Source: Balanoglossus misakiensis
Lineage: Eukaryota; Animalia; Hemichordata
Reading direction: 5' to 3'
Length of the DNA stretch: 64,000 nucleotides
Assembly: GCA_040954595.2 (NCBI GenBank)
Contig: CM082585.2
Coordinates: 11,608,979-11,672,978, forward strand
In this document: one piece after another, positions 4,157 through 39,163 of the stretch
Numbering within the stretch: the stretch's first letter is position 1
How the letters are laid out: the number at the start of each line of letters is the position of its first letter
The notes under the pieces: generated by a model
The model's input: only the letters and a program-made list of their open reading frames with translations
The model's database searches: none
What the model was told of the DNA's origin: nothing
Made by a program: the position numbers and the translations under genes

Positions 4157-7100
4157 ATGGCTGCGCCCTGTCCACTTGTCGCGGGTGAGTTGATATATTG
4201 AGTTGACCCGAAAAATGAGAAAGAGTGCATACTTTGACAGTTTGAAAATATGCGACACTAACACGGAGTGAAACAAACTAGAATTTTGCAAGAATGTTGT
4301 GTGAAAGTTCTTTTCTTTGAAGTATCTCGAGTTAGACTGCCACATGGCAATGTTTTCGTCGCACGTGCACGTGTGATAATGTACACACCTTCCACGTTGT
4401 GTCCCCCTCATACATCTTACCATATTGCTGCAGTTTTGTAGCCCCGCGACTACCCTTGACGATTTTTGTCTAACTTCCCCATACCATGTGGTACGTCCAT
4501 GCCCTCACATAAACAGCCGTAGATCCGCAGCAGATAAATGTAGCCCTGAATCCCGTACAGTGTTTTCCGAGAAGGGGGCGTTGCCCCCAAAAGACTGCCA
4601 GAGCACCAGGGTTACAATTATTGCACTTGCATATGTTTGGTTGTATTCTCTTTTTACAGTGCGGGCCTCTGCAGGCACATCGTTATTTCAAGGACCACCA
4701 GCATTGAAACAGTTTGACAACTTTTCAAGGTGACTATTTATTTTCTCTTTCAGTGACCTTTGACCTTGTTAACCAACTAAAGCTAATCTTTATACATGTA
4801 TAACTATGGCCAATTTCATCAGGTCTGTTGGGTTGGATGTGTGTGTATTGCAATTTTCATATAATAGTATATCATTTAGCAAATACTAGTAATATGTAAC
4901 AATAAATTAAGTAATGTACATTATATGTCAAATGAATAGTGAATGATCTCTTTCTTCATCTCTTGCAACAGTGACACAAGCCCAAGATGTAGAGTAATAG
5001 CATTCAGTGCTGATGGCAGTCTCTTTGCATGGTGTAATGGACAAGTGTAAGTATTACTTTTCATAAGTTATCTCTTTAACTAATGGCTGATCAGCTGTAG
5101 CTGATAACAGAAATTGTCAGTAGTTGATGGTGGACAAATTCAGATCTGCCTATGACTGTATTTTCATGCCAGGTTTTGAAATTTCAACCACGAATGTCTC
5201 AACCATCCATGTCCAATAATGTGCGATTTTTCCCCTTGCAGCATAAATATCACCAGTTTACCAACAGGTGACTTTGTGCAGAGAATTGACCGACCCAAAA
5301 CTGTGTGTCTGCAGTTTTCACCCAGAAACAACATTTTGGCAACTTGGGAACCTTATGCTGGTGAGTTATAAATCATGAGTGTTGAATGTCATGTAGCATA
5401 TTGATTAGGTTGGTACATGTAATATAATGAATGCAGTCTTCTGGGGACTTTGAATTTTAACCCAATTTTGTAGGATTTAGCAGGAAAAACCATAAACCTA
5501 CTACCTCTGTTGAATTCAGTTACCAAGGATACACCAGCAGGAACTCCTAATTTGCATTTATGGGATGTGAAGACTGCGCAAGACCTCAAAGGGTTTGTAC
5601 AGAAGAGACAAGATACATGGTTAGTGCATTGACTTGCTGGTAGAAATCTTGTCAGGTCCCCTTTTCTCTCTACAATCTTGTTTGGTGTTTTGAAAGATGT
5701 GATGACAGCTAAACCTGATCAATATATTTTGGACATCTTCATACATGCAACAGAAACAATAAAACAAAATTCCCGACCTACAGGCCTTCTCTATTTTTCT
5801 TTCAGGTGCCCTCAGTGGTCATCGGATGAGAGTATCTGTGCCAGAAATGTGAACAATGAAATCCATTTCTTTGAAGGCAATAACTTCGGTGGGTACCTCT
5901 CTGTTAAAATCTGTTTGGGAAAAAAATTGATGCAGAACATGCATGGCAATGCTTGTTGGTCCAGAAGTCTGGTTGAGAATGTGTGATGACTCTCACATCA
6001 TTTGCACCGCTTCCTACCTACTGATTTTGATTTGATTTGATTTTTCACCCACACTAGACACCATAGTCAGAAAGCTTCACATCCAAAAGATTGCAGACTT
6101 CCGACTCTCTCCAGGTGACATGCCTTGCAAAGTAGCAACATATGTGCCAGGATCAAAGGTAAGATTGCAGCAGCATTATTAAAAAGTTTATCTGTAAAAT
6201 ATTATTATGATATGAAATACAAATGTGTTTATGAATAATTCAGCAGAATACAAATTTTCTATTTTCCAGGGTGCACCATCATTTGTACGTGTTTACAAAT
6301 ATCCAAATTTGGAAGGTCCTGGATCGATGATTGCAAACAAGAGTTTCTTCAAGGCTGACAGGGTCAACATATTGTGGAATAAGAAAGGTAAGCTATCAAC
6401 TGAAAATCTACATGTACACTCCAGGATATTCAATGGGGATATTATAAGCCCAAAAGAGAATACATATCACTCCTATAGTTGTTTCTGTTGAAATATTGTG
6501 TTATATTTTACATCTTGACCATTCCTCACAGGGACTGATTTGTTGGTGATTACAACAGTAGACGTTGACCAAACAGGTGCATCATATTACGGTGAACAAG
6601 CTCTTCATTACATCAGTGCAAAGGGAGAAACAAGTAATGTACCTCTGGGTGAGTAGCCTGAGCGCGCTCTGTGAACTCTGACCTATGACACCTAGAATGA
6701 CTCCTGTTACGCTGCTTGGTAGCCCATGACCTTCAACTATCAATGCAGGTGGGCAAGTTTGATTTGATGTTCCCGTAAAAACTATCAATGCACCTTTGCT
6801 AAGTTTAAGTCTCTATCATGTAACATTGGCATTTGTTTTTCCCTTTCCAGCCAAGAAAGGTCCTATATATAGTGTAGATTGGAATGTGAATTCCACTGAA
6901 TTCTGTGTTGTGTATGGATGTATCCTTTGTTGTTTTCATGTCTAGTTTTAGACAATGTTTTGAATTCTTTCTCGAAACATTTGTGCCAGACCTTGGTTGG
7001 GTTCTGACTTCGTAATCTATGTCTATATCTAATTGCCAAAGATATGTATTCTAGTCATGGCTAGGTTGTAGTTACATCATGTGTGTTTGAGATCACAAAA

Positions 7101-9402
7101 TAAGGCCATGACTTCCAAATATGGATAACAAGAGCGGTACTCCTTAACTGAGTGACAGTTATGCCTGCCAAGGCAACATTGTTCAACTTGAAATGTGAGC
7201 CTGTGTTTGACTTTGGTACTGGACCCAGGAATATTGTACACTACAATCCACAAGGAACCAATATCCTTTTGATATACGTTTAGTGTCACTGTTCAATTTT
7301 CTATACATATAGTTCAGATAGATGATACAGACAGACACTGTAGCATGCACACATTCACACGTGCGTGCACCTACACAAACACACACGTACACACATGCAC
7401 ATGTGCCACAAGCTCACCGACATGAGAATATAAATGAACTTTAACAAAATTTTCCCTAACTGTCGTCACTTATTTGCTTGGCTGGATTTGGTAACCTGAG
7501 AGGAAACATGGTAAGTTAATTATGCAAGGAAAAGGTGTGCAGAGTTTAACAAAAATTGTAACGTTTCTCCCACTGGACCGTGTACTGTTTGTCTTGCCTC
7601 ACATGAAAATGTCCTCCATGTAAATTTCGTAGCCACGCATGACCTTGCAGAGTCTTGTGGAGTTCTGACAATAACGCATCTTAAAATGTTGAATTTCAGG
7701 AATTCTGGGATCGCAAGAATCTGAAGAATATCAGCAAGATGACCGCCAGTGATTCGACTCACTTTGAATGGTCTCCAGATGGCGCTCACTTCTTGACTTC
7801 TACATGTTCACCCAGGTTGAGAGTAGGAAATGGGTGAGAGAGGGGGTACTTTATGGGATAAGCTGGGCTTTGTGGGGGCAGATAGGTTCATAACCTGGGT
7901 ATGTCATTTAAGTGACTTGTCTCATTGGAGCATGTGTCTTTATAAAACACTGTCTGGGAGTAATGAATATACAGTGGCTGATTTCATGGTTTGATTAGTT
8001 CGATGTCTTCAAAGCAGTGAGGTGGATGTCAATCAATTATTACAGAATACAATTTTGTGTACTTAGGTTCAAAGTCTGGCACTATACAGGAAGTTTACTG
8101 TACGAGACAGAAGTAGGGGAATTGTGGGAAGCCACCTGGCAGAGTTTCCTAGAGGGAGTGCTCCCAGAGAAACCAATAGTGTACCAAGCTGTTCCATCAT
8201 CCGTCAGCCCCTCCAAACCAGAAGCAAAACCTAATGCATACAGACCCCCAGCCCTGCGAGGACAGCCCCACAAAGCCATTAGCGTGGTAAGTACAGAAAT
8301 CTAGTAGAATCAAAAATTGTGAATTGTTACATTACCAGTTATGTTGAGTTGTCCAAATTTAACGTAAAGAATATAGTGCACTTTGCAATAGTGTAGGTAC
8401 AAAACTGACAGGTCAAATCCTCGTCTGTTTTTCCAGCACGCTCGGGAGGAGGAATTGCCACAGAATATGAAACCCAAAGGAGACAGTGGTAAGAAATGCT
8501 ACATTTTCTCCAGAAGTGTGAATTGCGCCCTCTATGCCAACAGAGTGAATGAATGGGGGATGGAAAAAAGACAGATCCAGTCTTGTTTGAAAGTGGTTGA
8601 CTATTCAAACTGCTTTGTCAGTTATGTTATGCCCCTTTTCTTCTTTTTTACAGAACATTTATCAAAGTCTGCTCTGAGGAATAAAAAGAAAAGAGAATCG
8701 AAAGCAAAAGGCAAACACGAGGTGAGGATTTGTTAAGATTAGTTTGAGTGTGATAAGGGGAAAGAACATTGGTCATCTTAACAGACAGAATAGATGTCTG
8801 TGATATCTAATAGTATTTTTGTTTTCAAATTTGAAGGATGAGTTATCCCAGGAAAAACGAGATGCCATCGCCATGGCAGCCTACGTCATGGCTCCATCTC
8901 AACCAGCACCACATGTCCAGAATACTTTTGACCCAGACAGCAGTGGTGCCGATCCTGAGACAGAGAAAAAAATCAAAGGACTGAGAAAGGTAGACCTATA
9001 TTTTTAGTTTTTTGCAGATGTAGTCTAAAGGGAATAGAGACTCTTAAAATATTAACAACCCCATGTTGGATGAAAACCAACCAAAAATCTGTACTTGGAA
9101 TGGATTTTGGTGCCATTTTCCAAACATATCAAATTTTCAACATTGAACACAATATAGATACCCAAGAGAGCAGATTTTTTTCAAACTGAATATTGCAAAC
9201 TCTGAGCTCTGTGAAATTGGAATAGAAGTGTTGCTAGGAGATAGGTCTTTAATTTGCTTTTAAATTTGTTTTCTAGAAATTGAAGCAGATCGAGAAGCTA
9301 AAAGAACAGGCAGCATCAGGAAAGCAACTTGAGAAAAACCAGTTGGAGAAACTTGCAACGGAAGACGCCATACTGCAAGAACTGGAAGAACTCAAACTTT
9401 AG
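4157..9402 (+). CDS. EIF2A: Eukaryotic translation initiation factor 2A (WD/beta-propeller), multi-exon
   Basis: Exons read MAAPCPLVA|VRASAGTSLFQGPP, CPQWSSDESICARNVNNEIHFFE, GAPSFVRVYKYPNL..ANKSFFKADRV, DVDQTGASYYGEQ, YGFMPAKATLFNLKCEPVFDFGTGPRN, LAGFGNLRG, PRLRVGNG, AYRPPALRG, KKIKGLRK|KLKQIEKLKEQAASGKQLEKNQLEK; TAG at 9400-9402. Confidence 0.95.
4426..4619 (+). ncRNA. Candidate intronic box H/ACA snoRNA in EIF2A intron 1
   Basis: TGCTGC(4426)/GCAGCA(4527) close a 5' hairpin; H box AGATAA at 4532-4537; 3' hairpin closed by TAGCCCTG/CAGGGTTA with inner GGGGGC/GCCCCC; ACA at 4614-4616 followed by 3 nt, about 40 nt before the 3' splice site. Confidence 0.45.
6920..7158 (+). other. U12-type (minor spliceosome) GT-AG intron in EIF2A
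   Basis: 5' site GTATCCTTT at 6920; branch point TCCTTAAC at 7141, about 10 nt before the AG (7157-7158); splicing restores YG-F-MPAKAT in frame. Confidence 0.9.
7261..7469 (+). other. U12-type AT-AC intron in EIF2A
   Basis: 5' site ATATCCTTT at 7261; branch TTCCCTAAC at 7452-7460; terminal AC at 7468-7469; splicing restores YNPQGT-I-ICLAGFGNLRG. Confidence 0.9.
7524..7673 (+). ncRNA. Second candidate H/ACA snoRNA, in the EIF2A intron 7511-7699
   Basis: GCAAGG...TCTTGC hairpin, H box ACATGA at 7601-7606, TGTCCTCCAT...GTGGAG..GACA hairpin ending in ACA (7668-7670). Folded by eye only. Confidence 0.3.
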
Positions 9403-10914: not shown

Positions 10915-13875
10915 TCAAATCGTATTACTGATTACAGTATTGCGAATGTCTTGGAGGCTGAAAGCTGTGTTGAAGACAAAGTTTTCTGGGTCTTTCTGTT
11001 CCATCAGCATAATCCCTTTGCCACTGACTGCTAAGTAGAGACCTACAGAGGAAAACAAAACAGAATCTGTCTAGGTTACAATATTCTTGCATAGTAAAGA
11101 GTTATCTTGGATCAGATTGCAAACAAAAGTTTTTAGATGATGAGAGAAAAGTAGTAAATGTATTCATGATTGCTTACCTCTAAAATATGCTGACTCAAAG
11201 ACATATCTATCTGTACCCTTAGCCCACAGTCTGCGATAAAACACTCTGCCATCAACATGTTTCAACTTCTCCAGGCTGACGAAGCCCACCTTCTGAAAAA
11301 TAGAAAGCATTGGATATATTTTAAAATCCCCACTCATTTTTGGTGTGAAAGTAACCTTAGCTTTTTATATACAAGAAAGCCATGATAACACTTTGTTTTC
11401 AAGTTTGAGAATTATTTTACCTTGAATGTCAGACTGCGATTGCGTCCTGTTGAAACGGCCAGGCACTTGTTGAATTGTTGGTTGAAGAGTACGACCGCAA
11501 GATCTGGATCGTCTGGGTTGACTTCATTTTGTATGTCGTATGGCCACAGAACTTTGTACTGGTACATTGTCCATTGTCCTGCAATTATTCACAGAAGGAA
11601 TAGACTAATTTAGAGATAAAAAGTTCAATACTTACAATCATCTTGCATCAATCAAGATACCTTGCTGAAAACTGTTTTCATTCTCTGCCATGTATGAACA
11701 AAAATCTGTTTTCTCTCACCTTCTTTGAAATCATTATTTGCCGCCACTACTTGCAATCGATTCCTGTCAGGCATGGCAACAAAAGAACTGGAATCATTGG
11801 AAGGATATATATATGTGTTGTATCTGTCATAGTAATGCACCATGGGGAATCCATCATCAGATTTATCTATGTATTCCCTCTCCAAGACAATTGTCTCAAA
11901 AACAATTTTGCCATCTGGAAATCAAACAAAATAGAATCAGATTAGCAATTGAGTGTTGCACTCAACATACAGCCAATATGTCACAGTTTCAGGGAGGAAA
12001 CATGTCCTTGTGAACAAAACGAGACTGACCATCAAACTAGCATACTTGGTTTTATCTCTAACTTTTTAAAAAGAAACTTCATTGGCCAATACACCGACAC
12101 ACAATAATTGAAGGTGGTGTAAAAACTCACTGTCAATCAGAATGTCTATCTTGATTTCAATAAATGTGTACACTTCAGTTGGTCCGTCATCTTCATCATC
12201 ATCATCATCGTCGTCATCATCAGGCTCAAGTTCTATCTTTCTCTTCAAGATCTGCAAACAGAAAAATATTTCCATGCTATTGAGAATTGTTTCAACTCTT
12301 TAATCACATGGCAGATGTTAGTAAATGTTCATTCAATTACACACTGTCACTGCATGAAGTAATTCTGAAAATGTACATGCAATTTGACCACCAACTTTTG
12401 CCTACTTACAAATATAATTTGTCCGTCCATTTGATGAAAACGGTCCAAGATATCCCTGTGTTCAGCTGCTGAGACATCAAGGCCATTAACTGCATGCAGA
12501 ACATCACCAACTCTGTGAGATTGAAAATATATCATGTTACAAGAGGACATTAAAGTTTGATCCAACTCGGGGAGAAAAGATTATTTTGCAGTGTTCTGCT
12601 GTGTTTGTGACAGCAGTCTTTAGTCACCTTTCAATGTTATCCAATACACAAGACCACATCAAAGCTGTGTATGCGACTACAATGTTCCGACTAAAATACT
12701 ATATGGCAGCTACAATACCTCAATTTGGTTTTCTTTACAAAATCATGTTGTTCTTCTACCGCCGTAATTTTGTGCTTCTTTCTATCTGGAGTTTTGTCGT
12801 CGACATCTGTGCTGAATTTTACTCCCAGTGAGTGAAGATGATCATCAGTGCAAGGTATTTTGATGTCAGATTCCTCATGGATTATTGGTGCTTCCTGTGC
12901 AGAAATCAATCAGTGTGTCAGTCAATACATAAAAACAATTAGTCAAGATCTGCTTTGTTTCATCATTAAAAAACAACATGCACTAAATGCCTGTACTCTA
13001 ACACTAACCAGGCATTGTCTGAAATATTATTCTGGCTTTCATTAACGTTTTTGTTTTATAAAAACAATCAAAGCAATCTTAACTTTTAGCTATTTGGTAT
13101 AAAATATACTCCATTTCTGTGTTTGTAAACAAACAAACAAACAAACAAACAAACAAACAAACAAACAAACAAACAAACAAACAAACAAACCATGAGAGAA
13201 CATCCCATGGCCATATCCCTGTGATGGAGCTACACTATCTCCATCATGGGTTTTACCGATTGCATAATTTAAAGGCTATAAATAACCGAGGAATTTCCCT
13301 TACATTGCAGGGATGACAGCTCGAACTTCCGTATTTAAATACATGTACGTCCAAGATTGCCTAGCGAATTTAGTGAAGTATGTACAATTTCACCATCGAT
13401 GGCTGAAATATGGTTCGTGAATAACCCCACTCGTGCCACGGTGCAAGGGTCAAACCGGCGAAGAAAACGGTGAGTGATTTATAGACCGCGGAACCACCAC
13501 TTGTAATGAATTATCTGAGTGAAAAAACGATCGAGAGGGTTGGGGAAAATTTGCCAATAGGATGACATGAAATTGACAACTTACCATACTATCCTGTGCT
13601 CGTATACAAGGTGTTATCACCTCGATCACTTTGTGTTCAAAGTCTTCCAGGCGGGAATGAATTGTGCTTGTCAAAGAGCCAATGAAGGATTCACTCTCCA
13701 CAGGACGCGATTTTTGAAGCCCGCTGACTCTCTCTTCTCCGCACAGCTTTCCATCAACGCTGTCGTCAAATTCACCATCGAGGCCCAGACCTCGCATGGC
13801 GGTTGTGAACGACTTCTGTTTTTTAAATGCGCGAGGATCGGGCGATCGGGATCGAGTAGTTTTTTGTCCAATCAT
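10915..13875 (-). CDS. IL-1/IL-18-like beta-trefoil cytokine precursor with N-terminal PDZ domain, ~428 aa; exons 13585-13875, 12719-12894, 12410-12512, 12131-12251, 11720-11914, 11421-11578, 11178-11292, 10915-11042
   Basis: All seven GT-AG junctions are phase-compatible (1287 nt). PDZ: HSLGVKF...KITAVEE...KLRVGDVLHAVNGLDVSAAEHRDILDRF. Acidic run EPDDDDDDDDDEDDG. C-terminal QWTMYQYK...LAVVLFNQQFNKCLAVS...SLTFK|K...RVFYRR...RYVFESAYFRGLYLAVS resembles the IL-1 family signature. The start codon choice is less certain. Confidence 0.8.
13127..13190. repeat. (AAAC)n microsatellite
   Basis: Read directly from the sequence. Confidence 0.95.
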
Positions 13876-13924: not shown

Positions 13925-14010
13925 GTAAAGTTCCCAGGCTGTCGAATGCTCAGGCTGTCGATATTTATAGACATGGAAATCCGTGACGTGTACAGACGGG
14001 GAATTCCCCA
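13925..14010 (-). promoter_or_regulatory. Core promoter of the IL-1-like gene: perfect NF-kB palindrome, CRE half-site and TATA box
   Basis: GGGGAATTCCCC at 13998-14009; TGACGT at 13984-13989; TATAAAT on the minus strand at ~13963-13969; kB-like GGGAACTTT (minus) at 13927-13935; ATG at 13875. Confidence 0.7.
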
Positions 14011-15348: not shown

Positions 15349-18300
15349 CTAAATTGCGATATTTGGAACATGTTCATGATGGACCTGAGCTTTAATGTTT
15401 TCTCTTTTCGTTTCATCGTCCAGACTTACAGCGACAAAGTCTGTTTCTAGTGCTGAATCTGCACTCACTGCAGTTCCACTTCTGGTAGTTACACCCCCGT
15501 TGTCCAGTCCCGGCCCGTCCACCAGGTCAGAGGTCGGTGAACCGCAATACCCACTCTCACCCGATGAGCTTATCTGCCAATCGATCAGATTCTGTCGCTC
15601 CAACTCTTCCGACTGGAGCGTCTTCGACTGATCAGATATAGCCTTCAGGGCGTGGGATCTCCCTGACGGACTTCTTGGTAACTGCAGCAACAATGTCTTC
15701 CAGAATTTGGCGGTTTTCTTCAAATTGTCCGGTTGCCATTTCAGACAATTTGTGACCCTGATGATGTGTTTCAGGGCTTTCATGTGATCAATATCTGCAT
15801 TGGCTGGAAGTTCTTTGGCAATGATGATAACCAGGTTGCTGTGGAGTTTGAGAGAATGTTCTAATGCCACGTTGAATTGAAACGAACTCCAATGCTCCTT
15901 CAGGTAGTCGGGGGTCAGCACAATGATCCAACTTTGGCTGGCTTCAATCGACTCAACAACACTATCTGCAATAGCTATCATACAAATACAAATGAAAAGT
16001 TAGTAAAACGTGTGATTTTTTGGAAATTTTTACTTTCAAATCTATAAATTTCTGATGTAGTTTTGCAACAATGCATGTACAGGATAGTCATTTGATTAAC
16101 TTTTGATACACTGATTATAGAATATTTTAGGTTTAATCAGAAAGCAATTATGACTTACCAGTTCCAGCCAAGAAATCTCTTTGCTCGACACAAAGTTTGA
16201 ATCCGCACTTTCCCTCAAGGTAGCGCATAATGACATATTTGACAAAGCGAAAATCTTGATCTGTTCCACTGTGTGAGATGAACACATCATACTTCTTGTC
16301 ATCTGTGGAAACAGAACACAAATGTGGATGAAACTGTATGACACATGGCAGTTGCAATGTGCTACAAACAGGTATTGTCTTCCTAAAAAGTTTATACTAC
16401 ATTCCTGATTATTAAAGATACAAAGTCTCACTTTTAGTACGGTAAAGAAATTTAAAATTTCAAAAAAATTATCAAAAATTTATCAATATTAAAGTTACAT
16501 GTTTATCATCATGGCCGATCTCAGTGACGCAAATTCAAATTTTGGCCTTGAGTGAGAAACTTCCAGGTTTTCCTGTTAACTTCCATATTTATTTTGTGTG
16601 CAAACAATTATCCGGTACTCATATTCAGCAGATACCGGAAAATTCCAGTTAATGACGGACAAAATTTGGGTCAGGGACTGCTGTACTATGACCTATATTC
16701 CTGCCCAGTTGAATGCTCTGCAATTCTCTGGTTTGCTTCATACATCCTTCATTGCACATGGGGTCTTTGGTAAACTGGGTTTATATTAGAATATTTCTCT
16801 GGAAGTGTATATAAACCAAAGTTCAAAGACTGACGATCATATTTCTCATGCGTGTTTATCATTGGAGCACGTATTCAGGACTATGACCCAGTTATCTTTG
16901 GCACTGATGAATGGGTGAATGCACTGGCTCTATAGACATTAAAAGCCATGAATACTATTTCCAGGAAATTTTATTCTGGGGGGATATGGTGAGCAGGAGT
17001 GGGGTGCTTTGAGCAGAAGAAAAGAAAAAAGTTTGACAATTCGTGGCGATAATGTTACATTCTTTGGAACGTGGATCCGGACATGTTTTTCACGGAATAG
17101 AACAGAAATATATTTCTTTGAATACAGTAATCATCCTATCAGTTCCGCTGTACAGGTTATAAGGTCAAACACAGAATGATGTCTGAGTATCTTATGTCTG
17201 GACTGGTCTTTTGAAATTCTTAAAATTTTCTCAGCATATCTCAAATGTCCATTGTTGAAGTATTACCCAGCATCTAGGTTTTTTTGAAATGCGATAACTG
17301 GGTTAAAAGGTTTATGAGGCTTTGATATGATTTAAAGGCTGACACCAGTGAACCCACTTGTAATTGTTTGACAAGGCTACGTGACTTGAATCCTATGACC
17401 TATATATGGTACTGGTTAAAACCACTTTTGGTTGTCACTGTTTTGTAAATATTTTCACACCTGTTGAATATTAGGCTTGTGCTTTCGCAGTGGTATTACC
17501 ACATGGTTCAGTACAAGGAAAAACATCAACAGCTTTGATGAGAGAACAAACATTAACTAATGGAATGTTTATCAAACTGCCCTCTTGATGACATCACAAA
17601 ACTGGTTTTGGTCACTGGACCGCTCGCGTAAACATGTTAACAACCGACAACAAGGCGGTGACTGCCCTATTGTGAGTTGTGACCCCACGAAAGGTGTGGC
17701 AAAAGTCCAAGGAGGGGTCATGACCTCCAGGAGGCAGCCATAAAAAGAAATAGTACCATATACGGTAGTAAGTTGCTGATCAATTTCCGTAGGAAATTAC
17801 CATCACCTATTCAACAAAGACTGAACAGGCCAGCAATTAACTTACATAATGTTGAGTAATCGAAGAACTGCGGACCGGACCGGACCGGAACTACCAGTAG
17901 GAATGTGCTCTTTAGAAAATATAACACAGCAGTGTAACTGAATAATACACTCATGATTTCTACATATCGTGTTTTATGGGAAGAGCTGATCTGTAATTAG
18001 ACTCTGGTTATGAAATGTGATATTGTATATTGCACATTTCTCCGTCTCAAGAAGGCAACTCAGTCCTTTTGAGTTCAATCAGAGTTCAGAACCTGATGGG
18101 CCTGCAAATATACCAGATATCACTAGAAATACTCAGAGACCAGGTGTATGTAGACCATTGTGGTGGCAGTTTTGCATGTCCTCAAGATATTCTCTTTGAA
18201 TTTAATTTTGTAGGTATGTGTATAACATGTAATTAACACTAAACAGACTGGTGGAAAACAGTTTAAAATTCATGTTTGTCCCTTCTTTTATTATATATAT

Positions 18301-20988
18301 ATTTGCTTAAATAAATATTAACATATTTGGAAGTGTAACGCAAAATGGACATAACTCCAAGATCATTTACAAATACATAAATCTGCATGCATGAAATATT
18401 GATAAATCTGTGAAATATATTATAAACAATGTTGAATATTTCTGTATGGTATAAATATCTCTAACACTGTAAAAAACTCCTCTGTATCCAAGTCTGTATC
18501 TGTATATTGTAGAATTCTTCAGGTCTTTCATAAACCCTTGAGGCTCTTGGTGAAACACTACCAAGACTATCATAAAAGCAGACTGCTGATTGGTTATTGC
18601 TCATCTTCTGTGGTCACTCCAACCAATTGGAACCATTCTTCTGATACACTGTGAGATGTCGCCAGGTCATCACACCGCTTCTTACATTTTTGCACTGGCA
18701 GTCAGAAAGAGGCTGTTTATGTGTTCAACATCCCAACCATTACCTCTAACCCCCCCCCCCCCCCTAGATGAAACCCTGCAACTCTCATTGTCAATGAAAG
18801 ATCAACAGTTCTAAGAAAAATTCTTAATCTTTTCTTAAGTAAATATTTCTTGTAAAAATGTCTATGAATTTAAAATTCACACATTTAACATTATCTCACT
18901 AGTTTCCCCTTTACTATGTAAAATTGCTACATAGCAGCTTATCACTGTTACTAATATAGTACAACAAAGAATCTTATGTATTCAAAAGACGATAAATGGT
19001 AACAAATGCATGACACAGCATATTCTACCAGGGTCTAGTATGTATGTTGCCTTCCATGTGGAGAGCGCCTTCTAGTGGTAAATCTGGCAGTTCATGTTTT
19101 ACTTGAACATTTCTTTGTCACCTTCAGCCAAAGATTTAAGAAAAATACTACTGTATCTTCGATTGTTTTTGAAACCTTTTTTATACAACATGTTTGTCAA
19201 ATGTGTTATATGTGCTTCTGTTGTCTTCCGTTTTGAGGTTTGTGCGATCCTTTTCTGGCAGAGAGGGCGCTTTCTCGAGTGAGGGAGGACACTTACCATT
19301 TTTTTCCACTTTGCCAAAATTGTACTTGTAGATGAGTTTTATATCAAGTTTGAATGTCATGCCAAGGGCGGACAGAATGAGTGCCATGATGACAATCGAT
19401 GAAAGGACTATAATTATGATCAATAGGGTTGTGCTTTCTGCAGTTGAAGGTCCTGGATTTGGATCTGAAAGAAAATGGAGAACATTCTAAATTGAAAAGT
19501 ATTGTATTTGATATGTACAACGAAAGTTATTATTTATAACTAGCCTACTTTAAAGGCCAATATTTGTTGATGTTAGCATTTCTATAGATTTTAACAAATG
19601 ATCACTTTTTCACTTATTAAATCAGGGATACAGTTGCATGCTGTTACCCTCACAGCCAGTCAATATGCATATACTATATCCCCCTGGAGTTGCTTTGTTA
19701 TCTGCCTCTGCAAATGTACAATAAACAGACTTACCCCCATAACTCAGTACCAAAGGAATATCTATGCTTCCATGGGCGTTGACTGCTTTCACTACATATG
19801 TGGCATAAGTAGAAGCTCTTATGTCTTGTATGTAAAGATATATGCCGATGGTTTCATTGTCATCTCTGAAATCAATACACAAATAATTTTGTTGTTGTTG
19901 TTGTTGTTGTTGACTATTTTTGTTTGGTTATCAATTGCAGTCCTATCCTACCATTGAATACAACAGGGTGGAACTATATTTTCATGGTAAAGGGTCTTGC
20001 TATTTGCCTCTCACCTTCCCCTCTGTCTGGTACTGTATGTTCTGTTATCTAAGTCTTCTATGAAGTAATTACTTGTCTGGTTGTGCTTGTACCAAAAAAT
20101 CATCTTGTCTTCGTCTCCACCATGTCCAAAGAAGAACTCGCAGTAGAACGTCACATTAGAGCCATGGAGTCTGGTGTAGTTACGGCAACGTGTCGAGTTC
20201 AGCTGGTGGGGTTTCTCTGTAAACTGCATTGCTGTGTGTGTATGGGAAAAGTTTGAAAAACAATTTGCTTTGTTAATTTTTAACTGAGAGTAGTGATGAT
20301 CTGACGGAATTGAACACATCTGTACTTTGGATTGAATGTACACCAATATACTGCAATTTATTCTCAACAGAGCCATACAGACATGACCATGTACTTGAAA
20401 AATTCAAAGAAAATCTTACGTTTGGCCTGTAGTTCTTTGGTGTGGCTGATTGTACTTGTTCCATTGGAAGCACTACATGTATAGCTTGCCTCATCCCTCG
20501 TCATCAAATACCGGAATACTAAGGTCTGGTTTCCATTATCCATGAAAGTCTCTGCTTGATCGACCCCTTTCCATGGATAAGGATCAGAGCCTTTATACCA
20601 AGTCATCATCAAATACCCTTCGGCACAGCACGACATGTCTTTGTATTGGGTAATGGTTCCAAACTCAAGATCACCCATGTCTGGGTTTGTGAACTTGAAA
20701 GTGTCATCTATATTGAAAAGAAACAGCAATCAAATACCAAAAGATCAACTAAAAGTACATGATAATGATACCCCTAACTATTGACTTGTCATAAAACTGA
20801 AAGTTGTTTTATAAAAGCGAAAGTTGCGTATTTAATTACATCTTGGTTGTCAAGTTGTGAGACCCACCTTCATCGTGCCCATTAAACTGATCACAGACGT
20901 TTTTCCCATGAGCATGGAATACCAAAATCGAAGACAATATTATTATGACTATTCTGGACTGCAGTGGACACCTTGTCAGTTGTTCCAT
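15349..20988 (-). CDS. Interleukin-1 receptor-like protein (signal peptide, 2 Ig domains, TM, TIR, C-terminal tail), ~564 aa; exons 20868-20988, 20420-20707, 20015-20231, 19735-19865, 19297-19464, 16159-16302, 15349-15974
   Basis: Hydrophobic leader IVIIILSSILVFHAHG; Ig1 SCCAEG..TWYK...DEASYTCSASN; Ig2 VTFYCEF..FWYK; TM LLIIIIVLSSIVIMALILSALGM; juxtamembrane/box1 KLDIKLIYKYNFG..DDKKYDVFISHS typical of IL1R/IL1RAPL; box2 GFKLCVEQRDFLAG; box3 KFWKTLLLQLP. Exons sum to 1695 nt in frame. Confidence 0.88.
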
Positions 20989-21945
20989 GGTTTTCAATGA
21001 ACTGAAATAGTAAAGCAATATCATTTGGGATGTTATGCTATTTTACACGTAAATGATGAATTCAGCATAATTTGGGAAACCCCGCCTGCGTCATCGCCTT
21101 ACAAAGGAACTGATGAAGTGCGGAGGAGAGGAGTGCGTAACGGCCCGTACGTCATTAATCTCACCCCTGACTTTGTTCATGTATGAGCGTGACCAGGAAG
21201 GTCCAAGAAAGTAACTTACAAACACAATGTTGGTCTGATCACAGTGACTGTGCTGATCACCATCACCATCAGTAAGATCAGGATGTGACAACCGTGTTCC
21301 ACTTTCAAAAACTTTGTACACAACATACATTCCATGCCAATATTACCTTAAATAATTACGGACTCATGTTACTTTCAACGTCATGTTGCATTTCATAGCC
21401 CGGCCGCGTGATGACCTCATTTGACTCGGACGCAAAGCGCGCGTTTTAGGGCAAATTCCAGGAAATCGCCGCCTTAGAACCGGAAGTAAATAAATGTGAC
21501 TTCAGTACAATACAAAGTAGGCAAAGATGGCTAGAATAGCTTCGCAGACATAGCCATTTTACCTGTTTAAACTATTTTACCCCACTGCGATATTAAAGTT
21601 TTAATTAACACAGTTGCTAAGCAACCAGACGCCACAGCCGGCCCACCAAAGGTACAACCCCTCCCTACCATACTTACCCACCCCCATCAATTCATGAATT
21701 GGTCCAGTTCAGTTCCTCTTGCACTCAATGCGCAGTCTCTGTCCACGTTCTTGCAAAGGTGGCACCCTTCGACAGTGAAGAACTTTGTTTTCATTTTCCC
21801 TACCCGGTACTCCAGTATTCTTGCCAATATAGAGTAGTTGTGTAGAGGGTACACGGTTTGTCAGGTCAGTAGTCTTTTCATCAAAGACATTCTTGTGGGA
21901 AGATCGTACCAAATAATTTATTTGACGCTTTAAAACCCTTCGACC
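20989..21945. promoter_or_regulatory. Divergent promoter region between the IL-1R-like gene and GCC2, with kB- and ETS-like motifs
   Basis: Head-to-head genes; GGGAAACCCC at ~21074-21083; CCGGAAGT at ~21480; a possible non-coding exon donor on the minus strand near 21561. Confidence 0.45.
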
Positions 21946-24900
21946 ATGGCGGTGAGTAATGACTACAGGTTGTGGTGTACATTTGTACGACAACCGAACT
22001 TCAGAAGAGATTGGAGATATTACCGTGGTGTGAAGGTGGAAACGGGGAAATGGGATGGTGGGTTTGATGGGAGTAACTACTGTAGATGTTATAATTAAGT
22101 CCTAACACCCACAGATTCCCTGGTGATTGTGTATTGCAAGGTACATGTACATGTAGCCTGGATAGGCGTTTACAATACATGCCATCACTAACCCTGGAAC
22201 AGCTGAATGTGATGCCAGGTCATGCAGTGATTGATGTATTGTATTTGATGTGTTGGCACAGCCATGGAGTACATTAAGCTACTAGTAGTACCTCAAATGG
22301 TCTAGCCTAGAATCTATAACATTGCTTATTTTGGGTCACAAGTGGATTCTATGTGTATGGAGTGACCTAGCTTCAGCTCAGTAGCTCGAGGTTAAACCAA
22401 TAGGCAAAAACCTCGAGGTAATGAAGTGCAGCTAGGTGTGACCTAGCAAATGTGCAAATTAAAATCAACTGTAGAGATAGGCTCCAACCTTCCACTGCTA
22501 GATGTAATTGATGCTTGCAGGTTTGTTCTTCTGCTGTCACCTCTCTGCAAAAGAACAAGAGCAGAAAGAGGCAAACACCCAGCAAATGTAAAGGTGGCAC
22601 CTATCTCTACAACTGGTTTTTATGCATTCTAAAAATTAACTGCAAATTTTGAAACCAGGTGACATTTGTTATTCCGAACTGCGTGACTAAGCCCCTTTTG
22701 ATAATGGTATATTAGAAAACTGTATGCTCCTTTAGCAAGTGTGGTATTTGCATGTATTATTTTCAGTTTGCATGCAACATGTGGCCGGGATATTAGTGTT
22801 TACCATATTTATCCTATTGTGGATGGTTTTGTAAATTTACAGAGCTGTACAACAACTCTCTCATTATTAAGAAATCAGATGTTTCAACTTCTGGAGAAAA
22901 AACCTACATAATAAGAATTAAATAATTCTAACATTGACTGTTGTGAACAAAAAGTTGGGAGTTTTTTAATGCAGGGTATTTTTATGGCATAGACTATGAA
23001 TAGAAAAAGTACAGTAAATCTGTTTGGAACAACATCATAACATGTGTTACATACTGATCTGTTTATTTATGGGTCAGTGATTTATAAAATCAGCGTATTA
23101 TTAAAAGGAACGACACAGGTCCAGGTCATGGATTCCCTGATTTCTATCTCTTCTATTGGTTGGAAATCTGGTCAACATTGGAAAATGGGATAAACATAAG
23201 GACCAAAATGGCCAATTGATTCATTTTCTTAACCTTTGACCTTTACAGTCAGATACATGGGGAGACTGGGATGAGAAATTTCTATCGGAGGAAAAACACC
23301 AATTTGGAAAGATGAATGAAGAGAACAAAGAGGCAGTGTCACCGGGCGGAGAAGGGGCAACGAAAACCACCCCACAAAAATCAGGAAAGGTAAGGATGGA
23401 GATTTACAACGCATTTGCAAAGTTAGGTTTTCATCAGAATTTTTATACTACTCCATTTATGGCTGCTCAGTGTAATAAGTGTTGGTTTATTGCTGACCTC
23501 TGCAATATTATTTGTTTCTTCGTCCAGCTGGATTCCTTGTCAAGGGAAGATTTGATCAAGTATATCAAAAAACAACAGATACTGGTCCAGAAAATCAGAG
23601 CAAAATGTGATGGTAGGTGCATAGCAATGAAATCATCAAAAATTAAAGTGGAATGTGATTTCTTCATTTTACATCAGCAAGTTTTGCTTCTTCGTTACCC
23701 TTTATTTCAGCAAATACATTCAATTTTTTTTTACAGACTTAGCCAAAAAGAACACAGAACTGGAAAAGGATAAGAATGATAGCTCGAGTGCCGAGGGCCA
23801 AGGCAAAATTCAGGTGAGTTTGACAATGAAATGTATGATAAAGATTAACTGTTAGTGCATGTATGTGTTGTGTTAGTCTAGAGATTATCTGGTGATTTTC
23901 CCTGCAAATAGGAATGTCTATAGACTGCTATGAGAACCTCTAAGCAACTATTTCTGCATTGCAGGAGTTAGAGTCTGAACTTGCAGACTTGAGAGCTGAA
24001 CACAAAGAATTGATGGCCGCTTATAGTGGTGTCCAACTACAACAGGAAAATTCAGTGCAAATCCATGAGGTAAGAGAATGTTACATGCAGGCACATATAC
24101 CTTACATAAAGTATTGACAGAATAGGTGGCGGTTTTGAACAAATTAGACAGACATTGTCAAGTTCAGATTTGCAATGGATATTTCCCTAAGAAATCTAAT
24201 AAAGACTAATATTGATCTCCTTTGTAAAATAAAAAAATGATTCTAGGATCTACATAGTAAGGTCAGTGAATGGACAGAAAAGTTTACAAAAAGTGAAGAA
24301 GAAAAGAAAAAAATCCAGGAACAGTATAATGCTGAGGTGAAAAAGAATCAGGTGAGTTAGTCTGTGCTGGAATGAAAGAATGATACTGATTGGCTACTTG
24401 ACACCAACTGCTTGTTTAAATATCCAATTGTCTGCTGTTTTTTAAACTGGGTGATTTGAAGACTCTGTTGGTACCCAGCATGCATGTGAGAATCCCCTCT
24501 TCCCAACATAGGGTTGCAGCAAAAATAGTTCAATCTTTATGCTGTTGATAAAGTTGGGTTTGTGGGTAACCTTGGTGTGTGTTGGTATTAAGGTGGTTCC
24601 TTCCATGTTCCCTTGGTTATTAGAACATGGCAGAGCAGTTTGAGTGCATGAAGATGAAAGAGGAAACCATGGCAACCACATTCCAGTGTCTGCAAGAGGA
24701 GTGTCAGAAGCTGACTCAGGAGAAAAAAGTAATGCCTTTATTTACGACATACCGGTATTATCAAAAGAAAAAATTCAGAAACAAATGCATGTGTAAATCA
24801 ATGTTTATGCATGTTGAGACAGAATTGACCCTTGACCTTTGAACTTGTGGATCATTGCAGGACTTGAGTGATCAGGTCAGTGTTTTGACCGTGGCCAGAG

Positions 24901-27900
24901 ATGAAACCATGAAGGCTATGAAAGCGCTGAAGCAAGAGCAGCAGGGTAGCGACAGTGCCAGCGCTCAGCTGCAGGTCCAGATAGAAGCTCTGACAGCAGA
25001 AAGAGATATGGCCAAGTCTGAAGTACAACAAGCTGTGGAGAAGATTGCTGATCTGCAGGGGAAGTTGGAAGATGCAAAGTCTGGTGAAGAGAGACTCGAG
25101 GAGGAGAGTAACAAGTTGAGAGATGAGAACCAAGATTTGAAGTCAAAAGTTGAAGAGTTGACGGCCATCAGAGATGAGCTTGAAGGTCTCAAAGCAGGTG
25201 TGGGGCAGAAAGACGAGGAATGTGAAAGTTTGAGATCAGAAATGAAGAAACTGACAGAGAGTCATGAAAGCGTTAGAGGACTTAACGAGGAACTGAAATC
25301 ACAGATTAGTTTACTTATGAATGAAATGGAAGTTGTCATTGAGGAGCGGGACAAAGTCAAGCAAGAAATTGAAGCTGTCAAAACTGAACAACAGAAGATA
25401 GCGGAGGAGAAATCTGATATTGAAAAGAAGCTCGAAGAAGTGATGAATGAAAAGGAACAGGTTAATTCAGAGTTTGAGACTGTGAAATCTGAGAGAGATG
25501 ATTACAACAAAGCCCGGGAAGAACTGAGGAGTGAACTTGATTCAGTTCTGTCAGAAAAAGAGAGGTTGTCGGTGAGGTTGACAGAGATTCAACAAGACCA
25601 GGAGAGATCAAGCGGGGATTTAGAAGGAGAGTTAGAAAGAGTGCGTAACGAGAGGGATGGACTTTCTGCAGATGTTTCACGGTTGCAGTCAGAGAAAGAA
25701 GAGCTTGTCAAGGAATCTGAGAGTGTGAAGCAGGAGCATGAGAGCTTTGAAACTGAGATGAAAACCAAATTTGAATGTTTGCACGAAGAAATGGAGAAAA
25801 TGAAAACAGAGCTTGCAAGATTGAATGCAGAACGGGACGAGATTAGCAGAGAGTTGGAAGACTCCCAGGTTGAGAAGGAGAGGTCGGTCGATGAACTGAA
25901 AATTCAACTGGACAACTTGAAGACGGAGAAGGAAAATGTTGCATCAGAGCTGGAGAAAGTGATTGAAGACAGAGACAGGATGATGAAGAAGCTAGAAAGT
26001 GCCAACATAGGAGTTGAAACCACGGCGATGGAGCTGCAGAATGAAATGAAGAAAGTACAAGAGGAAAGAGATCAGCTGCATGTACAGACGGAGAAGTTGA
26101 TGGGAGATAACCAGAGGCTCTGTGATGAGATGGAAATGGCCACACATGAGCACAAGGGTGCTAGACACGACCTAGAGAATGAGTTAAGTGATGTGAAATT
26201 CGAGCGAGATGAGCTGAAAATCAAGATGGAGTCGCTGCAGGAGGAAAGGGCAAAGTGGACGGGAGAGATGGAGGTTGTCAGTCACGGTCTGGAGGAGGCC
26301 CTCAACGACATGCAAGGTAAACTTGAAGCAGCCAACAGCCAGGTAGGGCAGCTCACGTCACAGATTGAAAGTTTGGAAAAGGAGCGCGATCAACTCACAG
26401 GAAATTTACAGACACTGCAGAGGGATAATGAAAGCTCATCTGGTGAACTTCAAAATGAATTGCAGAAGGTCAGAGGTGAATTGCAGAGTGTTCAGGAAGC
26501 TCTGTCGGTCAAAGAGGCAAATCTTGAAAATGCCGAACAGCGGTTGAGAGATGCGATCCAAGAAAACAATGTTGTGAAAGAGAAACTGACAGGAGAGCTG
26601 CAGGGTGTGATTTGTGAAAGAGATGAGATGAGAAGCAAATTAGAAGAATTTGATCAACTTCGGTCTAAGTATGAGAATCTTCAGGAGCAACTGAAGTCGG
26701 CAGAAGAAGCAAAGGAACAATTGGAGGAAAGTTTCGGCGGACAGAATGCAGCGAGAGATGAGGAGCTTGGCAAACTGCAGACTGATGTCCAGAATCTGCA
26801 GGGTCAGCTTGGGTCAGTGGAGGAAAGAAACCAGCAACTACAGCAGCAGTTGGAGGAGAGTGTCAGCAAACAGAATGAGGTCAAAGGTGATCTGGAAGTG
26901 ATGTCAAAGGTCAAATCAGAGCTGGAGGAGCACTTGCAGAAATTGAAAGAAGACGTGGAGAAGGAGAGATCAGAATTCAGAGAAAAAATTGAAAGTTTAG
27001 AGTCGGAGAACAACCACTTGAAAAATGAGCTATCATCATTGAAAGACCAGAAACAGATGGCAAATGAAGAATTGCATACAGAGCTCACTAGAATCAGGGA
27101 AGAAAAAATCTCCTTAGCAACGGAGTTTGAGAATATTCAGAGGTCAAATGTCAACATGGAAGGAAGGTGCCAAGAACTGGAGAATAATCTTCAGACTTTA
27201 CAGGCAGAGAAAGTTGAAATGCTTAAGATCAAAGAAAAGTTAACTCAGGATGGAGAAGCTTGCACAGAGGAGCTGAAAAATAAAATTCAGAATTTAGAAA
27301 GTGAGAAGGACAAGATAACGGCAGATATGGCTGCTTTGAAAGAAGAATCTCAGAGGAAAGATGAGATGAATAATGAGATGAAGAAAGAACTCAGTAACCT
27401 AGCAACTGTGAGAGAAAACTTAACCTCCGAATTGGACTCACTTAGAGAGCAATATCAAAATAGCGATGAAAATAGCAGTAAACTCACAGAGGAGATCTCT
27501 GTTCTGAAGTCACAGACTGAACAGTTGGAAACTCTGAAACAGAATCTTGAAGCTGAGGTGGAAGCGAGTAAGAAAAGCCTACAAGAGAAAGAGGCGCAGC
27601 AACAGGAAGTGACATCACGGTTGGAGGAATCAAACAACAGACACGGAGAACTGACAGAACGTATTCACAAACTGGAAGAGGAGCTTGGAACAGTGCAAGA
27701 GAGACTTGCAAAAGTGACAGAGGAGAAAGATGGGCTGATGAAAGAATTGGAAATTGAGAAGGTGGGCAGAAAGAAAACAGAAGAGACTGTACAAAAGATG
27801 TCGGAAGAGAAGGGAGAAGAAGGGGCTTTAGAAAAGGAGCTGGGTAAGGACAAATCTCACTTAAGAAATTGAATCGTATTTGTCAGTATTTTACACACAG

Positions 27901-30900: not shown

Positions 30901-32385
30901 ACTCTGAATGGTGAAAGTCAAATGTTTCATTTCTTCCTATAGGAGCAAATGAAGGTCATGATGGATGACCACCACCGTGCCATGGAAAATTTACAGAAAC
31001 AGCTGGAAAGCTCAGAGAATGAATTGTATAGACTGCAACGGGAACAGCAACAACAACAGCAGCAACAACAACATGCTGCAGTGTATATGCAAATCAAAGA
31101 TAACCAACAGGAAGTGATGCAGCCCAAAGAGGAAAGAGAAGCTGGTGAGGTTAGTCTTTCAGAATAGAAATTCACTTTGAAATATCTCCATGTCAACACC
31201 AAGATGTAATCAACACTTTTATTAAACTTCTGATGTTTTGATTTTCCCTAGGGAATGGAACATCCAGACTCAGAATCAAACCTTCCACCGACTCCTGTTA
31301 CACCTGGTCCAACTGTTGTTCCTTTAGATCAGTTACTCAGTGGTAACAACGATGAAAAACAGAGCGTTACAAGCATCAGTACGAGCGCTGAGGAAGAGAA
31401 TCTTCGCCAGCAAGTGACGGCCGCAGCCAAAAAACTGGAACATTTTGCTGAGGTGTGTGAATGGGTGATTATGAGAGTCTATCCCATGTTAGTGATAATG
31501 CCAAAAGACAAGATATTAGCAAAACTGTGTGAAAAGTGCCACACCAGTAATTCTGTGTATATCTGTGTGCCTCTCTCTCTCTCTCTGTCTTTCTGTCTCC
31601 CTCCCTCCCTTCACCAAACAGATAACCAATGAGAATGAAGCAACCATTATGCGGCTGACAGAACAGGCCAAAGTGTTAAAGGATGAAATCCGGCGACTGG
31701 AAAGAAACCAACAGAGAGATAAATCTGTCTCCAATATGGAATATCTGAAAAATGTTCTCATGAAGGTAAGCAACAAAATATCATTGTAGTCCAGGTGTGT
31801 GAGATTCAGTGGAAATTATTCTTATCAGAGCTTGTACGCGAGTATGACAACATGACTTTGCAGTGGGTCTCAGTGTTGTAGGTCAGGGCTGGTGCTGTCA
31901 AAATATTGGTTTGAGTTGATTCCTAAAGTCTTCTTCTTTATTCTAATAATTTCTTAGTTCATGACACTACCACCTAGTGATGAAAAGCAGAGATTGATTC
32001 CTGTGATAACGACGATGCTGAAACTGAGTGCAGAAGAGAAGGACAAGATCGCAGAGATTGCACTGGGTGAGTTTGACTGCCAGACTAGTAGAGAGATGGG
32101 GAGAGACATGGGGGGGGGGGGGTGAACAGATGTGTACATAGACAGGCTCACAGGTCAGACACACACATACATACAGACGGACAGACAGACATAATTATCA
32201 GATTGGTCTTCACTTGTATTATTCAAATGAAAACTATCAAAGTACACAAATCTGTCCATGCAAAAGTCTTGTCATAAATTTTGATCTTTCTTTATTTCAT
32301 TTGAATCTCAGCTGAAGTTGGAGAAGAGACTGGTGGAGCTGGTTGGAGTGGTTACTTACATCGCTGGTCAGGAGGAATGGTTTAA
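21946..32385 (+). CDS. GCC2: GRIP and coiled-coil domain-containing protein 2 (GCC185 golgin), multi-exon, including one ~3 kb coiled-coil exon (~24861-27843)
   Basis: Micro first exon ATGGCG|GTGAGT splices in frame to 23249; KLDSLSREDLIKYIKKQ; MDLEIADYERSI; KLKQLLVKTKKDLAD; EYESYKVRVHSVLK; GRIP domain NMEYLKNVLMK|F..EKQRLIPVITTMLKLSAEE; C-terminal GWSGYLHRWSGGMV*. Confidence 0.92.
22366..22436. mobile_element. Short degenerate copy of the palindromic MITE also found at 55818-55926
   Basis: CCTAGCTTCAGCTCAGTAGCTCGAGGTT...AACCTCGAGGTAATGAAGTGCAGCTAGG. Confidence 0.55.

Positions 32386-35830: not shown

Positions 35831-39163
<3,333 letters not shown>

What the first reader, a model, noticed from the sequence alone, without database searches (positions are those of the whole stretch)
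10915..13875. PDZ-IL-1 fusion protein hidden across eight small exons
Seen: the reconstructed 428-aa ORF has a basic N-terminus, a PDZ domain (SLGV carboxylate loop, LRVGDVLHAVNG), a poly-Asp linker and a C-terminal domain. By eye that domain aligns with IL-18/IL-1b: WTMYQYK ~ FIISMYK, LAVVL ~ MAVTI, SLTFK ~ IISFK, VFYRR ~ IFFQR, FESAYFRGLYLAV ~ FESSSYEGYFLAC / FESAQFPNWYIST. The signature is split by an intron and is absent from the ORF track, so automated annotation would probably call this uncharacterised or PDZ-only. I recall PDZ-bearing IL-1-like proteins being reported in fish and some invertebrates, so the family may not be wholly new; I cannot verify that here.
Basis: partly seen in the sequence, partly recalled or inferred. 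Interest (0 to 1): 0.88.

Follow-up and report, generated by a model that had tools for sequence, protein, structure and literature searches.

The report
Acorn-worm interleukin-1 beside its receptor
This is an intact eight-exon gene, likely from an acorn worm, for a PDZ-bearing interleukin-1-like protein of a family described in 2025-26; it lies next to an IL-1-receptor-like gene, both carry NF-kB-type motifs upstream, and it likely acts as an inducible immune signal.

Summary
Eight GT-AG exons on the minus strand (13875-10915) give an open 428-aa protein. It aligns end to end with three full-length relatives: two Glandiceps talaboti proteins and an intronless contig (38-43% identity, E≤1e-84). 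The PDZ domain is supported (13 of 13 PDB hits for exon 3). The C-terminal domain points to IL-18/IL-1 by sequence and language-model features, but my AlphaFold models of relatives failed (pLDDT 39, 43), so the trefoil fold was not shown here. It is not new: it is the hemichordate orthologue of IL-1anc (PMC13736523), close to PflaIL-1, in the published neighbourhood eIF2A – IL-1anc – IL-1R – GCC2. Added here: kB-type motifs lie upstream of both ligand and receptor (0 of 6 other 5' regions); caspase-type sites lie in the acidic linker; and the two-Ig receptor's TIR lacks the BB-loop Pro and box-3 Tyr, so it may be a co-receptor-dependent or braking chain. No transcript from this species was available. 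Verdict: new member of a known family; interest 0.3.

The parts
13998..14009 (.). Palindromic kB-type motif GGGGAATTCCCC, about 30 bp upstream of a TATA-like box and 123 bp upstream of the ATG
   Evidence: Only copy in the window; 0 of 100 shuffles hold one. The consensus is recalled; binding untested.
13963..13969 (-). TATA-like box (TATAAAT)
   Evidence: Pattern scan; start site not mapped
13585..13875 (-). Exon 1 (aa 1-97): basic N-terminus (pI 12 for aa 1-30) with KKQKS motif, likely NLS; no signal peptide
   Evidence: KKQKS is invariant in 3 of 3 relatives. The paper predicts an NLS over the matching KRQ[RK]S motif of PflaIL-1 and SkowIL-1.2.
13290..13299 (-). Second kB-type motif, in intron 1
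12719..12894 (-). Exon 2 (aa 98-156): first half of PDZ with SLGV loop
   Evidence: Pfam PDZ on the matching part of L001, E 1.5e-4, just under the curated cut-off
12410..12512 (-). Exon 3 (aa 156-190): second half of PDZ
   Evidence: 13 of 13 PDB hits are PDZ-domain constructs, best E 0.1
12131..12251 (-). Exon 4 (aa 191-231): end of PDZ; acidic linker with LEPD (D201) and DEDD|G (D212), candidate caspase sites; first strand of a beta-rich segment
   Evidence: Motif scan; cleavage untested
11720..11914 (-). Exon 5 (aa 231-296): start of the IL-1-like domain (about aa 250)
   Evidence: Finds P0007 at E 5.8e-8 among 1.84 billion proteins
11421..11578 (-). Exon 6 (aa 296-348): IL-1-like domain, WTMYQYK to SLTFK
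   Evidence: 34/53 identical to P0024
11178..11292 (-). Exon 7 (aa 349-387): VFYRR and FES motif
   Evidence: 27 of 34 residues identical to PflaIL-1 over aa 354-387, counted by eye
10915..11042 (-). Exon 8 (aa 387-428) and TGA stop; AATAAA at 10863 and 10469
15349..20988 (-). Neighbouring IL-1R-like gene, 7 exons, 564 aa: signal peptide, two Ig domains, TM (aa about 264-286), TIR (about 311-456), tail of about 108 aa; ends 1.5 kb upstream of the ligand ATG
   Evidence: Open spliced model; Pfam TIR E 6e-8 and I-set E 6e-5; best PDB TIR hits IL1RAPL2/1 and SIGIRR, above TLRs
21074..21083 (.). kB-type motif 86 bp upstream of the receptor ATG
4600..9402 (+). eIF2A gene, convergent with the ligand gene (syntenic marker; 5' end approximate)
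   Evidence: Pfam eIF2A above cut-off in 3 of 4 exons tested
22000..32386 (+). GCC2-like golgin, divergent from the receptor (syntenic marker; 5' end approximate)
   Evidence: 1009-aa coiled-coil exon; Pfam Rab_bind E 7e-10 and GRIP E 1e-8

Best explanation
[quoted passage not shown] Shown: gene structure, PDZ, orthology to hemichordate IL-1anc, synteny with eIF2A, an IL-1R-like gene and GCC2. Inferred: microbial signals would switch it on through NF-kB at the kB motifs; the precursor would stay inside the cell (possibly nuclear, via the basic N-terminus); a caspase would cut the acidic linker (D201 or D212) and free a 25-27 kDa IL-1 part; this would leave by a non-classical route and bind an Ig-TIR receptor, the neighbouring one being the first candidate, likely with a second chain because its TIR lacks the BB-loop proline.
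For: Open model with seven GT-AG introns. End-to-end match to P0024, P0025 and P0026. L001 carries PDZ and IL-1 parts in one uninterrupted 418-aa ORF with a long 3' tail, as a spliced transcript would. ESM Atlas, relative's C-terminal domain: top three hits IL-18/IL-18/IL-1 at 0.91-0.92 with 176-182 shared features; fascin at rank 30, 0.82. 7 of 7 PDB hits are IL-18. Pfam IL1 is the only family for that domain, E 0.19. Introns 4-6 have phases 1,1,0, as stated for the last three introns of IL-1beta genes (PMC4880838, passage). PMC13736523 (abstract, Results, most of Discussion, Bioinformatics methods, most Extended Data legends, part of Table S2 read) defines the family, lists PflaIL-1 and SkowIL-1.1/1.2, reports the EIF2A/IL-1R/GCC2 linkage, induction on immune challenge in lamprey, sea urchin and Nematostella, and caspase cleavage of SpurIL-1.3 at DEPD. 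kB motifs: 11 matches against 3.2 expected (2 of 100 shuffles reach 11), in 2 of 2 IL-1-axis upstream regions and 0 of 6 other 5' regions.
Against: Both AlphaFold jobs on relatives failed (pLDDT 39.4 and 43.4), so the fold was not shown here. All sequence hits to IL-1/IL-18 are below significance, and the Atlas scored the Glandiceps domain only 0.85. In the paper only 1 of 8 tested IL-1anc proteins, a PDZ-less one, was cut by human caspase-1, and its site is not at the position of this linker. D201 is followed by Asp, a poor P1' residue (recalled). The kB regions were chosen after seeing the sites; each alone has P≈0.03 and conservation could not be tested. AU-rich elements in the longer 3' UTR are not enriched (6 vs 3.4 expected, p 0.12). 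The paper states that ligand-receptor binding and pro-inflammatory function are not shown. Fish nIL-1F is reported to antagonise IL-1beta (PMC7144542, passages).
Confidence: 0.6

Rival explanations
1. Same family, opposite sign: the protein is a receptor antagonist like fish nIL-1F, and/or the neighbouring two-Ig receptor is a DIGIRR/SIGIRR-like brake, so the kB-wired pair is a negative feedback module.
For: Fish nIL-1F, the vertebrate IL-1anc, is reported to dampen IL-1beta. The receptor has two Ig domains and a long tail; Leu where IL1RAPL has the box-3 Tyr; Ala where IL-1RAcP has the BB-loop Pro. DIGIRR/SIGIRR are described as having lost Arg-Tyr (PMC9448908, passages).
Against: No other IL-1 is known in hemichordates for it to antagonise (the paper lists only IL-1anc rows for two acorn worms). 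Two Ig domains are the norm for invertebrate IL-1Rs. Its TIR scores higher against IL1RAPL (E 4e-11) than SIGIRR (E 2e-6). That box-3 Tyr is commonly absent from signalling TLR-type TIRs is recalled, not tested.
Confidence: 0.2
2. It works mainly as an uncut intracellular (nuclear) protein released on cell damage, like IL-1alpha/IL-33, or as a PDZ scaffold with no extracellular role.
For: Basic N-terminal motif conserved in 3 of 3 relatives. SpurIL-1.1/1.2 are nuclear, and no PDZ-bearing IL-1anc was cleaved in the paper's assay.
Against: An acidic linker with a DxxD|G site separates the domains here, and similar acidic linkers are seen in PflaIL-1 and SkowIL-1.1/1.2. Linkage to a surface receptor is old.
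Confidence: 0.17
3. The C-terminal domain is another beta-trefoil (FGF, fascin, ricin-B) or not a trefoil, and the IL-1 likeness is chance.
For: No significant Pfam or structure hit to IL-1 in my runs.
Against: Three kinds of weak search all rank IL-18/IL-1 first; FES motif; intron phases; published trefoil models of PflaIL-1.1 and SkowIL-1.2 (legend only); synteny with IL-1R.
Confidence: 0.03

Closest known systems
IL-1anc of enteropneust hemichordates: PflaIL-1 (Ptychodera flava XP_070538561.1), SkowIL-1.1/1.2 (PMC13736523, Table S2)
   Same: Length (422 vs 428 aa), MIG start, basic motif, PDZ, acidic linker, FES; 27 of 34 identical residues around FES (by eye); same neighbours EIF2A, IL-1R, GCC2.
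   Different: A different species or gene: the sequence differs throughout. One copy in this 64-kb window, against two in Saccoglossus and two on one Glandiceps contig.
Glandiceps talaboti XP_077987626.1 and XP_077987757.1 (P0024, P0025), named 'uncharacterized protein'
   Same: 43% and 39% identity over the whole length; about 51% and 43% in the IL-1-like domain.
   Different: Not in the IL-1anc paper ('Glandiceps'/'talaboti' 0 hits in main text and 7 supplements); their linker is less Asp-rich.
Fish nIL-1F/nIL-1Fm (lumpfish, 352 aa; PMC7144542)
   Same: PDZ + IL-1 domain; predicted caspase-1 site.
   Different: Vertebrate locus is a different one; reported to act as an antagonist.
Vertebrate IL-18 and IL-1beta
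   Same: Leaderless, FES motif, best weak hits are IL-18, intron phases 1,1,0.
   Different: They have no PDZ; this gene has one more intron (phase 1) just after FES. Orthology to either was not tested.
IL1RAPL1/2, SIGIRR and fish DIGIRR (for the neighbouring receptor)
   Same: Ig-TM-TIR with a long tail; best TIR matches; two Ig domains and no Arg-Tyr, as in DIGIRR.
   Different: Orthology untested; BB-loop Ala, whereas the IL-1RAcP and the PDB 'SIGIRR protein' entries show Pro.

Membership tests
IL-1anc | N-terminal PDZ domain | tested here: met
   13 of 13 PDB hits for exon 3 are PDZ; Pfam PDZ/PDZ_6 in 3 of 3 relatives, below curated cut-offs
IL-1anc | C-terminal 12-stranded IL-1 beta-trefoil fold | tested here: inconclusive
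   Models of relatives had pLDDT 39 and 43; sequence and feature searches rank IL-18/IL-1 first; published models exist for the close orthologue (legend only)
IL-1anc | (F/L)ES motif near the C-terminus | tested here: met
   FES at aa 380-382, invariant in 4 of 4 aligned proteins
IL-1anc | No signal peptide; under about 500 aa | tested here: met
   428 aa; best 11-residue hydropathy in the N-terminus 0.6, against 3.35 for the receptor. A hydropathy scan, not SignalP.
IL-1anc | Conserved intron phases in the trefoil | tested here: met
   Introns 4-6 are 1,1,0, as stated for IL-1beta. The paper's own phase figure could not be seen; one extra phase-1 intron follows FES.
IL-1anc | Ambulacrarian microsynteny (EIF2A, IL-1R, GCC2) | tested here: met
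   All three flank the gene as described
IL-1anc | Full-length homology to named family members | tested here: met
   Computed against Glandiceps and JGI relatives; against PflaIL-1 by eye only
IL-1 cytokines (function) | Induction on immune challenge | not testable with these tools
   No expression data for this species; kB motifs are indirect
IL-1 cytokines (function) | Protease maturation and non-classical release | not testable with these tools
   Motifs only
IL-1 cytokines (function) | Binding to an Ig-TIR receptor | not tested
   No complex prediction was run
FGF / fascin / ricin-B trefoils | Best match of the C-terminal domain | tested here: inconclusive
   Fascin cluster at rank 30 (0.82) below IL-1 clusters; fold comparison unusable
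DIGIRR/SIGIRR (neighbouring receptor) | Two Ig domains, TM, TIR lacking Arg-Tyr, long tail | tested here: met
   these features are not shown to be diagnostic in invertebrates
DIGIRR/SIGIRR (neighbouring receptor) | Orthology and inhibition of IL-1R/TLR signalling | not tested
   No tree or assay; TIR scores higher to IL1RAPL than to SIGIRR

The most novel reading that the evidence does not exclude
The locus is a self-contained NF-kB feedback cassette: one IL-1anc and one two-Ig receptor in tandem, each under a proximal kB site, the receptor being a non-signalling or co-receptor-dependent chain. The ancient IL-1/IL-1R linkage would then preserve a co-induced ligand and its regulator, and this one-ligand, one-receptor pair would be the cleanest test of direct IL-1 binding in an invertebrate.
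Probability: 0.2. Interest if true: 0.6.

Novelty: new member of a known kind. Interest (0 to 1): 0.3.

Why it matters
The family and its gene neighbourhood are already in print, so the gene itself adds one more acorn-worm species. Its use is practical. The IL-1anc paper leaves open whether these proteins bind the linked receptors and how they are induced and cut. This locus offers a single ligand and a single receptor side by side, with specific promoter motifs, two candidate cleavage aspartates and two unusual TIR residues that can each be tested by mutation. It also shows that unannotated Glandiceps proteins belong to the family.

Tried and rejected
No whole genome is held for the window, so paralogues outside 64 kb were not examined. 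No RNA holder was listed, so no reads were laid. A word-based search with the exon-5 reading frame for longer proteins found nothing. Of 23 hits in the representative search, 22 were rejected as chance matches to a short motif repeated in unrelated proteins; only P0007 matched in one long stretch. Two further protein searches reached only three hits each, the same small set of relatives, leaving the alignments too shallow for AlphaFold. Fold searches with the poor models gave no match at E≤0.001 (IL-18 held 6 of the top 7 rows, at TM about 0.2, likely driven by sequence). The wide structural search returned only low-Z, mostly beta-propeller rows, with no trefoil among 50; none of this is counted for or against the fold. 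Exon 7 alone had no PDB hit. The 449-aa model was rejected. ARE enrichment was not significant in the longer 3' UTR (p 0.12); the 57-nt one has 2 pentamers (p 0.02). No complex prediction was sent: only a ligand from another species and a receptor ectodomain split by introns could have been supplied. The scan's earlier findings held nothing. Promoter analysis was not found in the IL-1anc paper ('promoter' and 'binding site' 0 hits in main text and 7 supplements); its figures could not be seen and may bear on synteny and intron claims. ESD was not searched for in the window.

Full report
Observation. The region holds a minus-strand gene of eight exons: 13875-13585, 12894-12719, 12512-12410, 12251-12131, 11914-11720, 11578-11421, 11292-11178 and 11042-10915. 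All seven introns are GT-AG, with phases 0,2,0,1,1,0,1, and the joined frame is open for 428 codons. An alternative acceptor at 11355 would add 21 residues. No whole genome and no reads were available, so the junctions rest on splice signals and homology.

Relatives. A full HMMER search of 1.84 billion proteins with exon 5 gave 23 hits, of which one matched in a single long stretch; the other 22 were dropped as repeat-motif matches. That hit and its cluster mate are Glandiceps talaboti proteins named 'uncharacterized'. A search with the longer isoform added a second Glandiceps gene and an unnamed JGI protein. The spliced model aligns with all three from its first residue to near its last (43%, 39% and 38% identity; E 2e-108 to 1e-84), and every exon contributes. 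The JGI protein lies on L001, a 2395-base contig with one uninterrupted 418-aa ORF and a long 3' tail. This is what a spliced transcript looks like, and it shows PDZ and IL-1 parts in one reading frame in a relative. That the window is from an enteropneust hemichordate is inferred from these best matches.

Domains. Single exons are invisible to Pfam (0 of 7 with a PDZ or IL1 hit). Exon 3 retrieves 13 PDB sequences at E≤10, all PDZ constructs, and the relatives hit Pfam PDZ families at E 1e-4 to 1e-3, below the curated cut-offs. For the C-terminal domain of L001, Pfam's only hit is IL1 (E 0.19), all 7 PDB hits are IL-18 (E about 1), and the ESM Atlas ranks IL-18, IL-18 and IL-1 clusters first (0.91-0.92), with fascin at rank 30. 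The Glandiceps domain gave the same order at a lead-level 0.85. Each result is weak, but they agree. AlphaFold failed on both alignments (pLDDT 39 and 43), and the fold searches are uninformative. The trefoil is therefore inferred here, not shown.

What is known. PMC13736523 (Nat Ecol Evol 2026; preprint PMC12338702, passages seen) defines IL-1anc: N-terminal PDZ, C-terminal IL-1 trefoil, (F/L)ES motif, no signal peptide. Its Table S2 lists PflaIL-1 from Ptychodera flava, which by eye shares 27 of 34 residues with aa 354-387 here, and two Saccoglossus proteins (the Pfla cell is cut at 400 of 422 letters). It reports that all ambulacrarians have an IL-1 linked to EIF2A, that hemichordates show linkage to GCC2, and that IL-1R-like genes are linked in all but sea urchins. 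The window matches this: eIF2A ends at 9402 and a Rab_bind/GRIP golgin lies at about 22-32 kb, with a 564-aa signal peptide-Ig-Ig-TM-TIR gene between the ligand and the golgin. Introns 4-6 have the phases 1,1,0 given for IL-1beta genes. PDZ-bearing fish nIL-1F was described earlier. The finding is a new species-level member of a known family.

How it likely works. The paper shows induction of IL-1anc genes on immune challenge in three animals, nuclear or cytoplasmic location, and caspase cleavage of one sea-urchin member. In this window a kB-type consensus (recalled) matches 11 times against 3.2 expected; these are 7 separate places. One is a perfect 12-base palindrome just upstream of a TATA-like box of the ligand gene, one is in its first intron, and one is 86 bp upstream of the receptor ATG. 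Six other 5' regions of similar GC content hold none. The regions were chosen after the sites were seen, and each alone has P about 0.03, so this is a lead. The linker holds LEPD (D201) and DEDD|G (D212); cutting there would free 26.5 or 25.2 kDa. The most likely reading is an NF-kB-induced, leaderless pro-cytokine that is cut, released and binds an Ig-TIR receptor (0.6). Induction, cleavage, release and binding are all inferred.

Results against, and rivals. Only one of eight IL-1anc proteins was cut in the paper's caspase-1 assay, it lacks the PDZ, and its site does not correspond to this linker. The authors state that receptor binding and pro-inflammatory action are not shown. Fish nIL-1F is reported as an antagonist. 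The neighbouring receptor's TIR is closest to IL1RAPL and SIGIRR. It has Ala where IL-1RAcP has the BB-loop Pro and Leu at the box-3 Tyr, a change described for the inhibitory DIGIRR/SIGIRR. An inhibitory module (0.2) and an uncut nuclear or alarmin role (0.17) remain open. A non-IL-1 fold is unlikely (0.03).

Verdict. The gene is the hemichordate IL-1anc at its published locus. The promoter motifs, linker sites and receptor residues are modest, testable additions; 'promoter' and 'binding site' do not occur in the paper's text or supplements, though its figures were not visible. Interest 0.3.

Noticed in passing
window 15349-20988 (-): IL-1R-like gene with two Ig domains; the second Ig lacks the usual second cysteine (YVV where YxC is expected), and a 3-kb intron separates the TM exon from the TIR exons.
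   Followed up: partly
window 6920 and 7261 (+): The eIF2A gene has two adjacent introns with U12-type donors (GTATCCTT, ATATCCTT) and matching branch-point motifs at 7141 and 7454.
   Followed up: partly
window 467-3904 (-): RNF168 orthologue (PDB E 4e-30), head to head with eIF2A.
   Followed up: yes
window 24843-27872 (+): GCC2-like gene has a single open stretch of 1009 codons of coiled coil.
   Followed up: partly
window 61592-64000: Tandem satellite, 87-bp unit, 27.6 copies, 96% matches; gives spurious 350-aa ORFs on the minus strand.
   Followed up: partly
window 13127-13190: Perfect (AAAC)16 microsatellite in intron 1 of the ligand gene.
   Followed up: no
window 37723-38058 (+) and 56036-56482 (+): Exons of a protein kinase and of a 5'-nucleotidase-family gene; further genes between 33 and 61 kb were not annotated.
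   Followed up: no
P0024, P0025: Glandiceps talaboti has two IL-1anc-like genes on a contig of the same length (25.03 Mb), both named 'uncharacterized' and absent from the IL-1anc paper.
   Followed up: partly
L001 1284-1530: The 3' tail of the related transcript-like contig begins with several copies of an approximately 65-base repeat (seen by eye).
   Followed up: no
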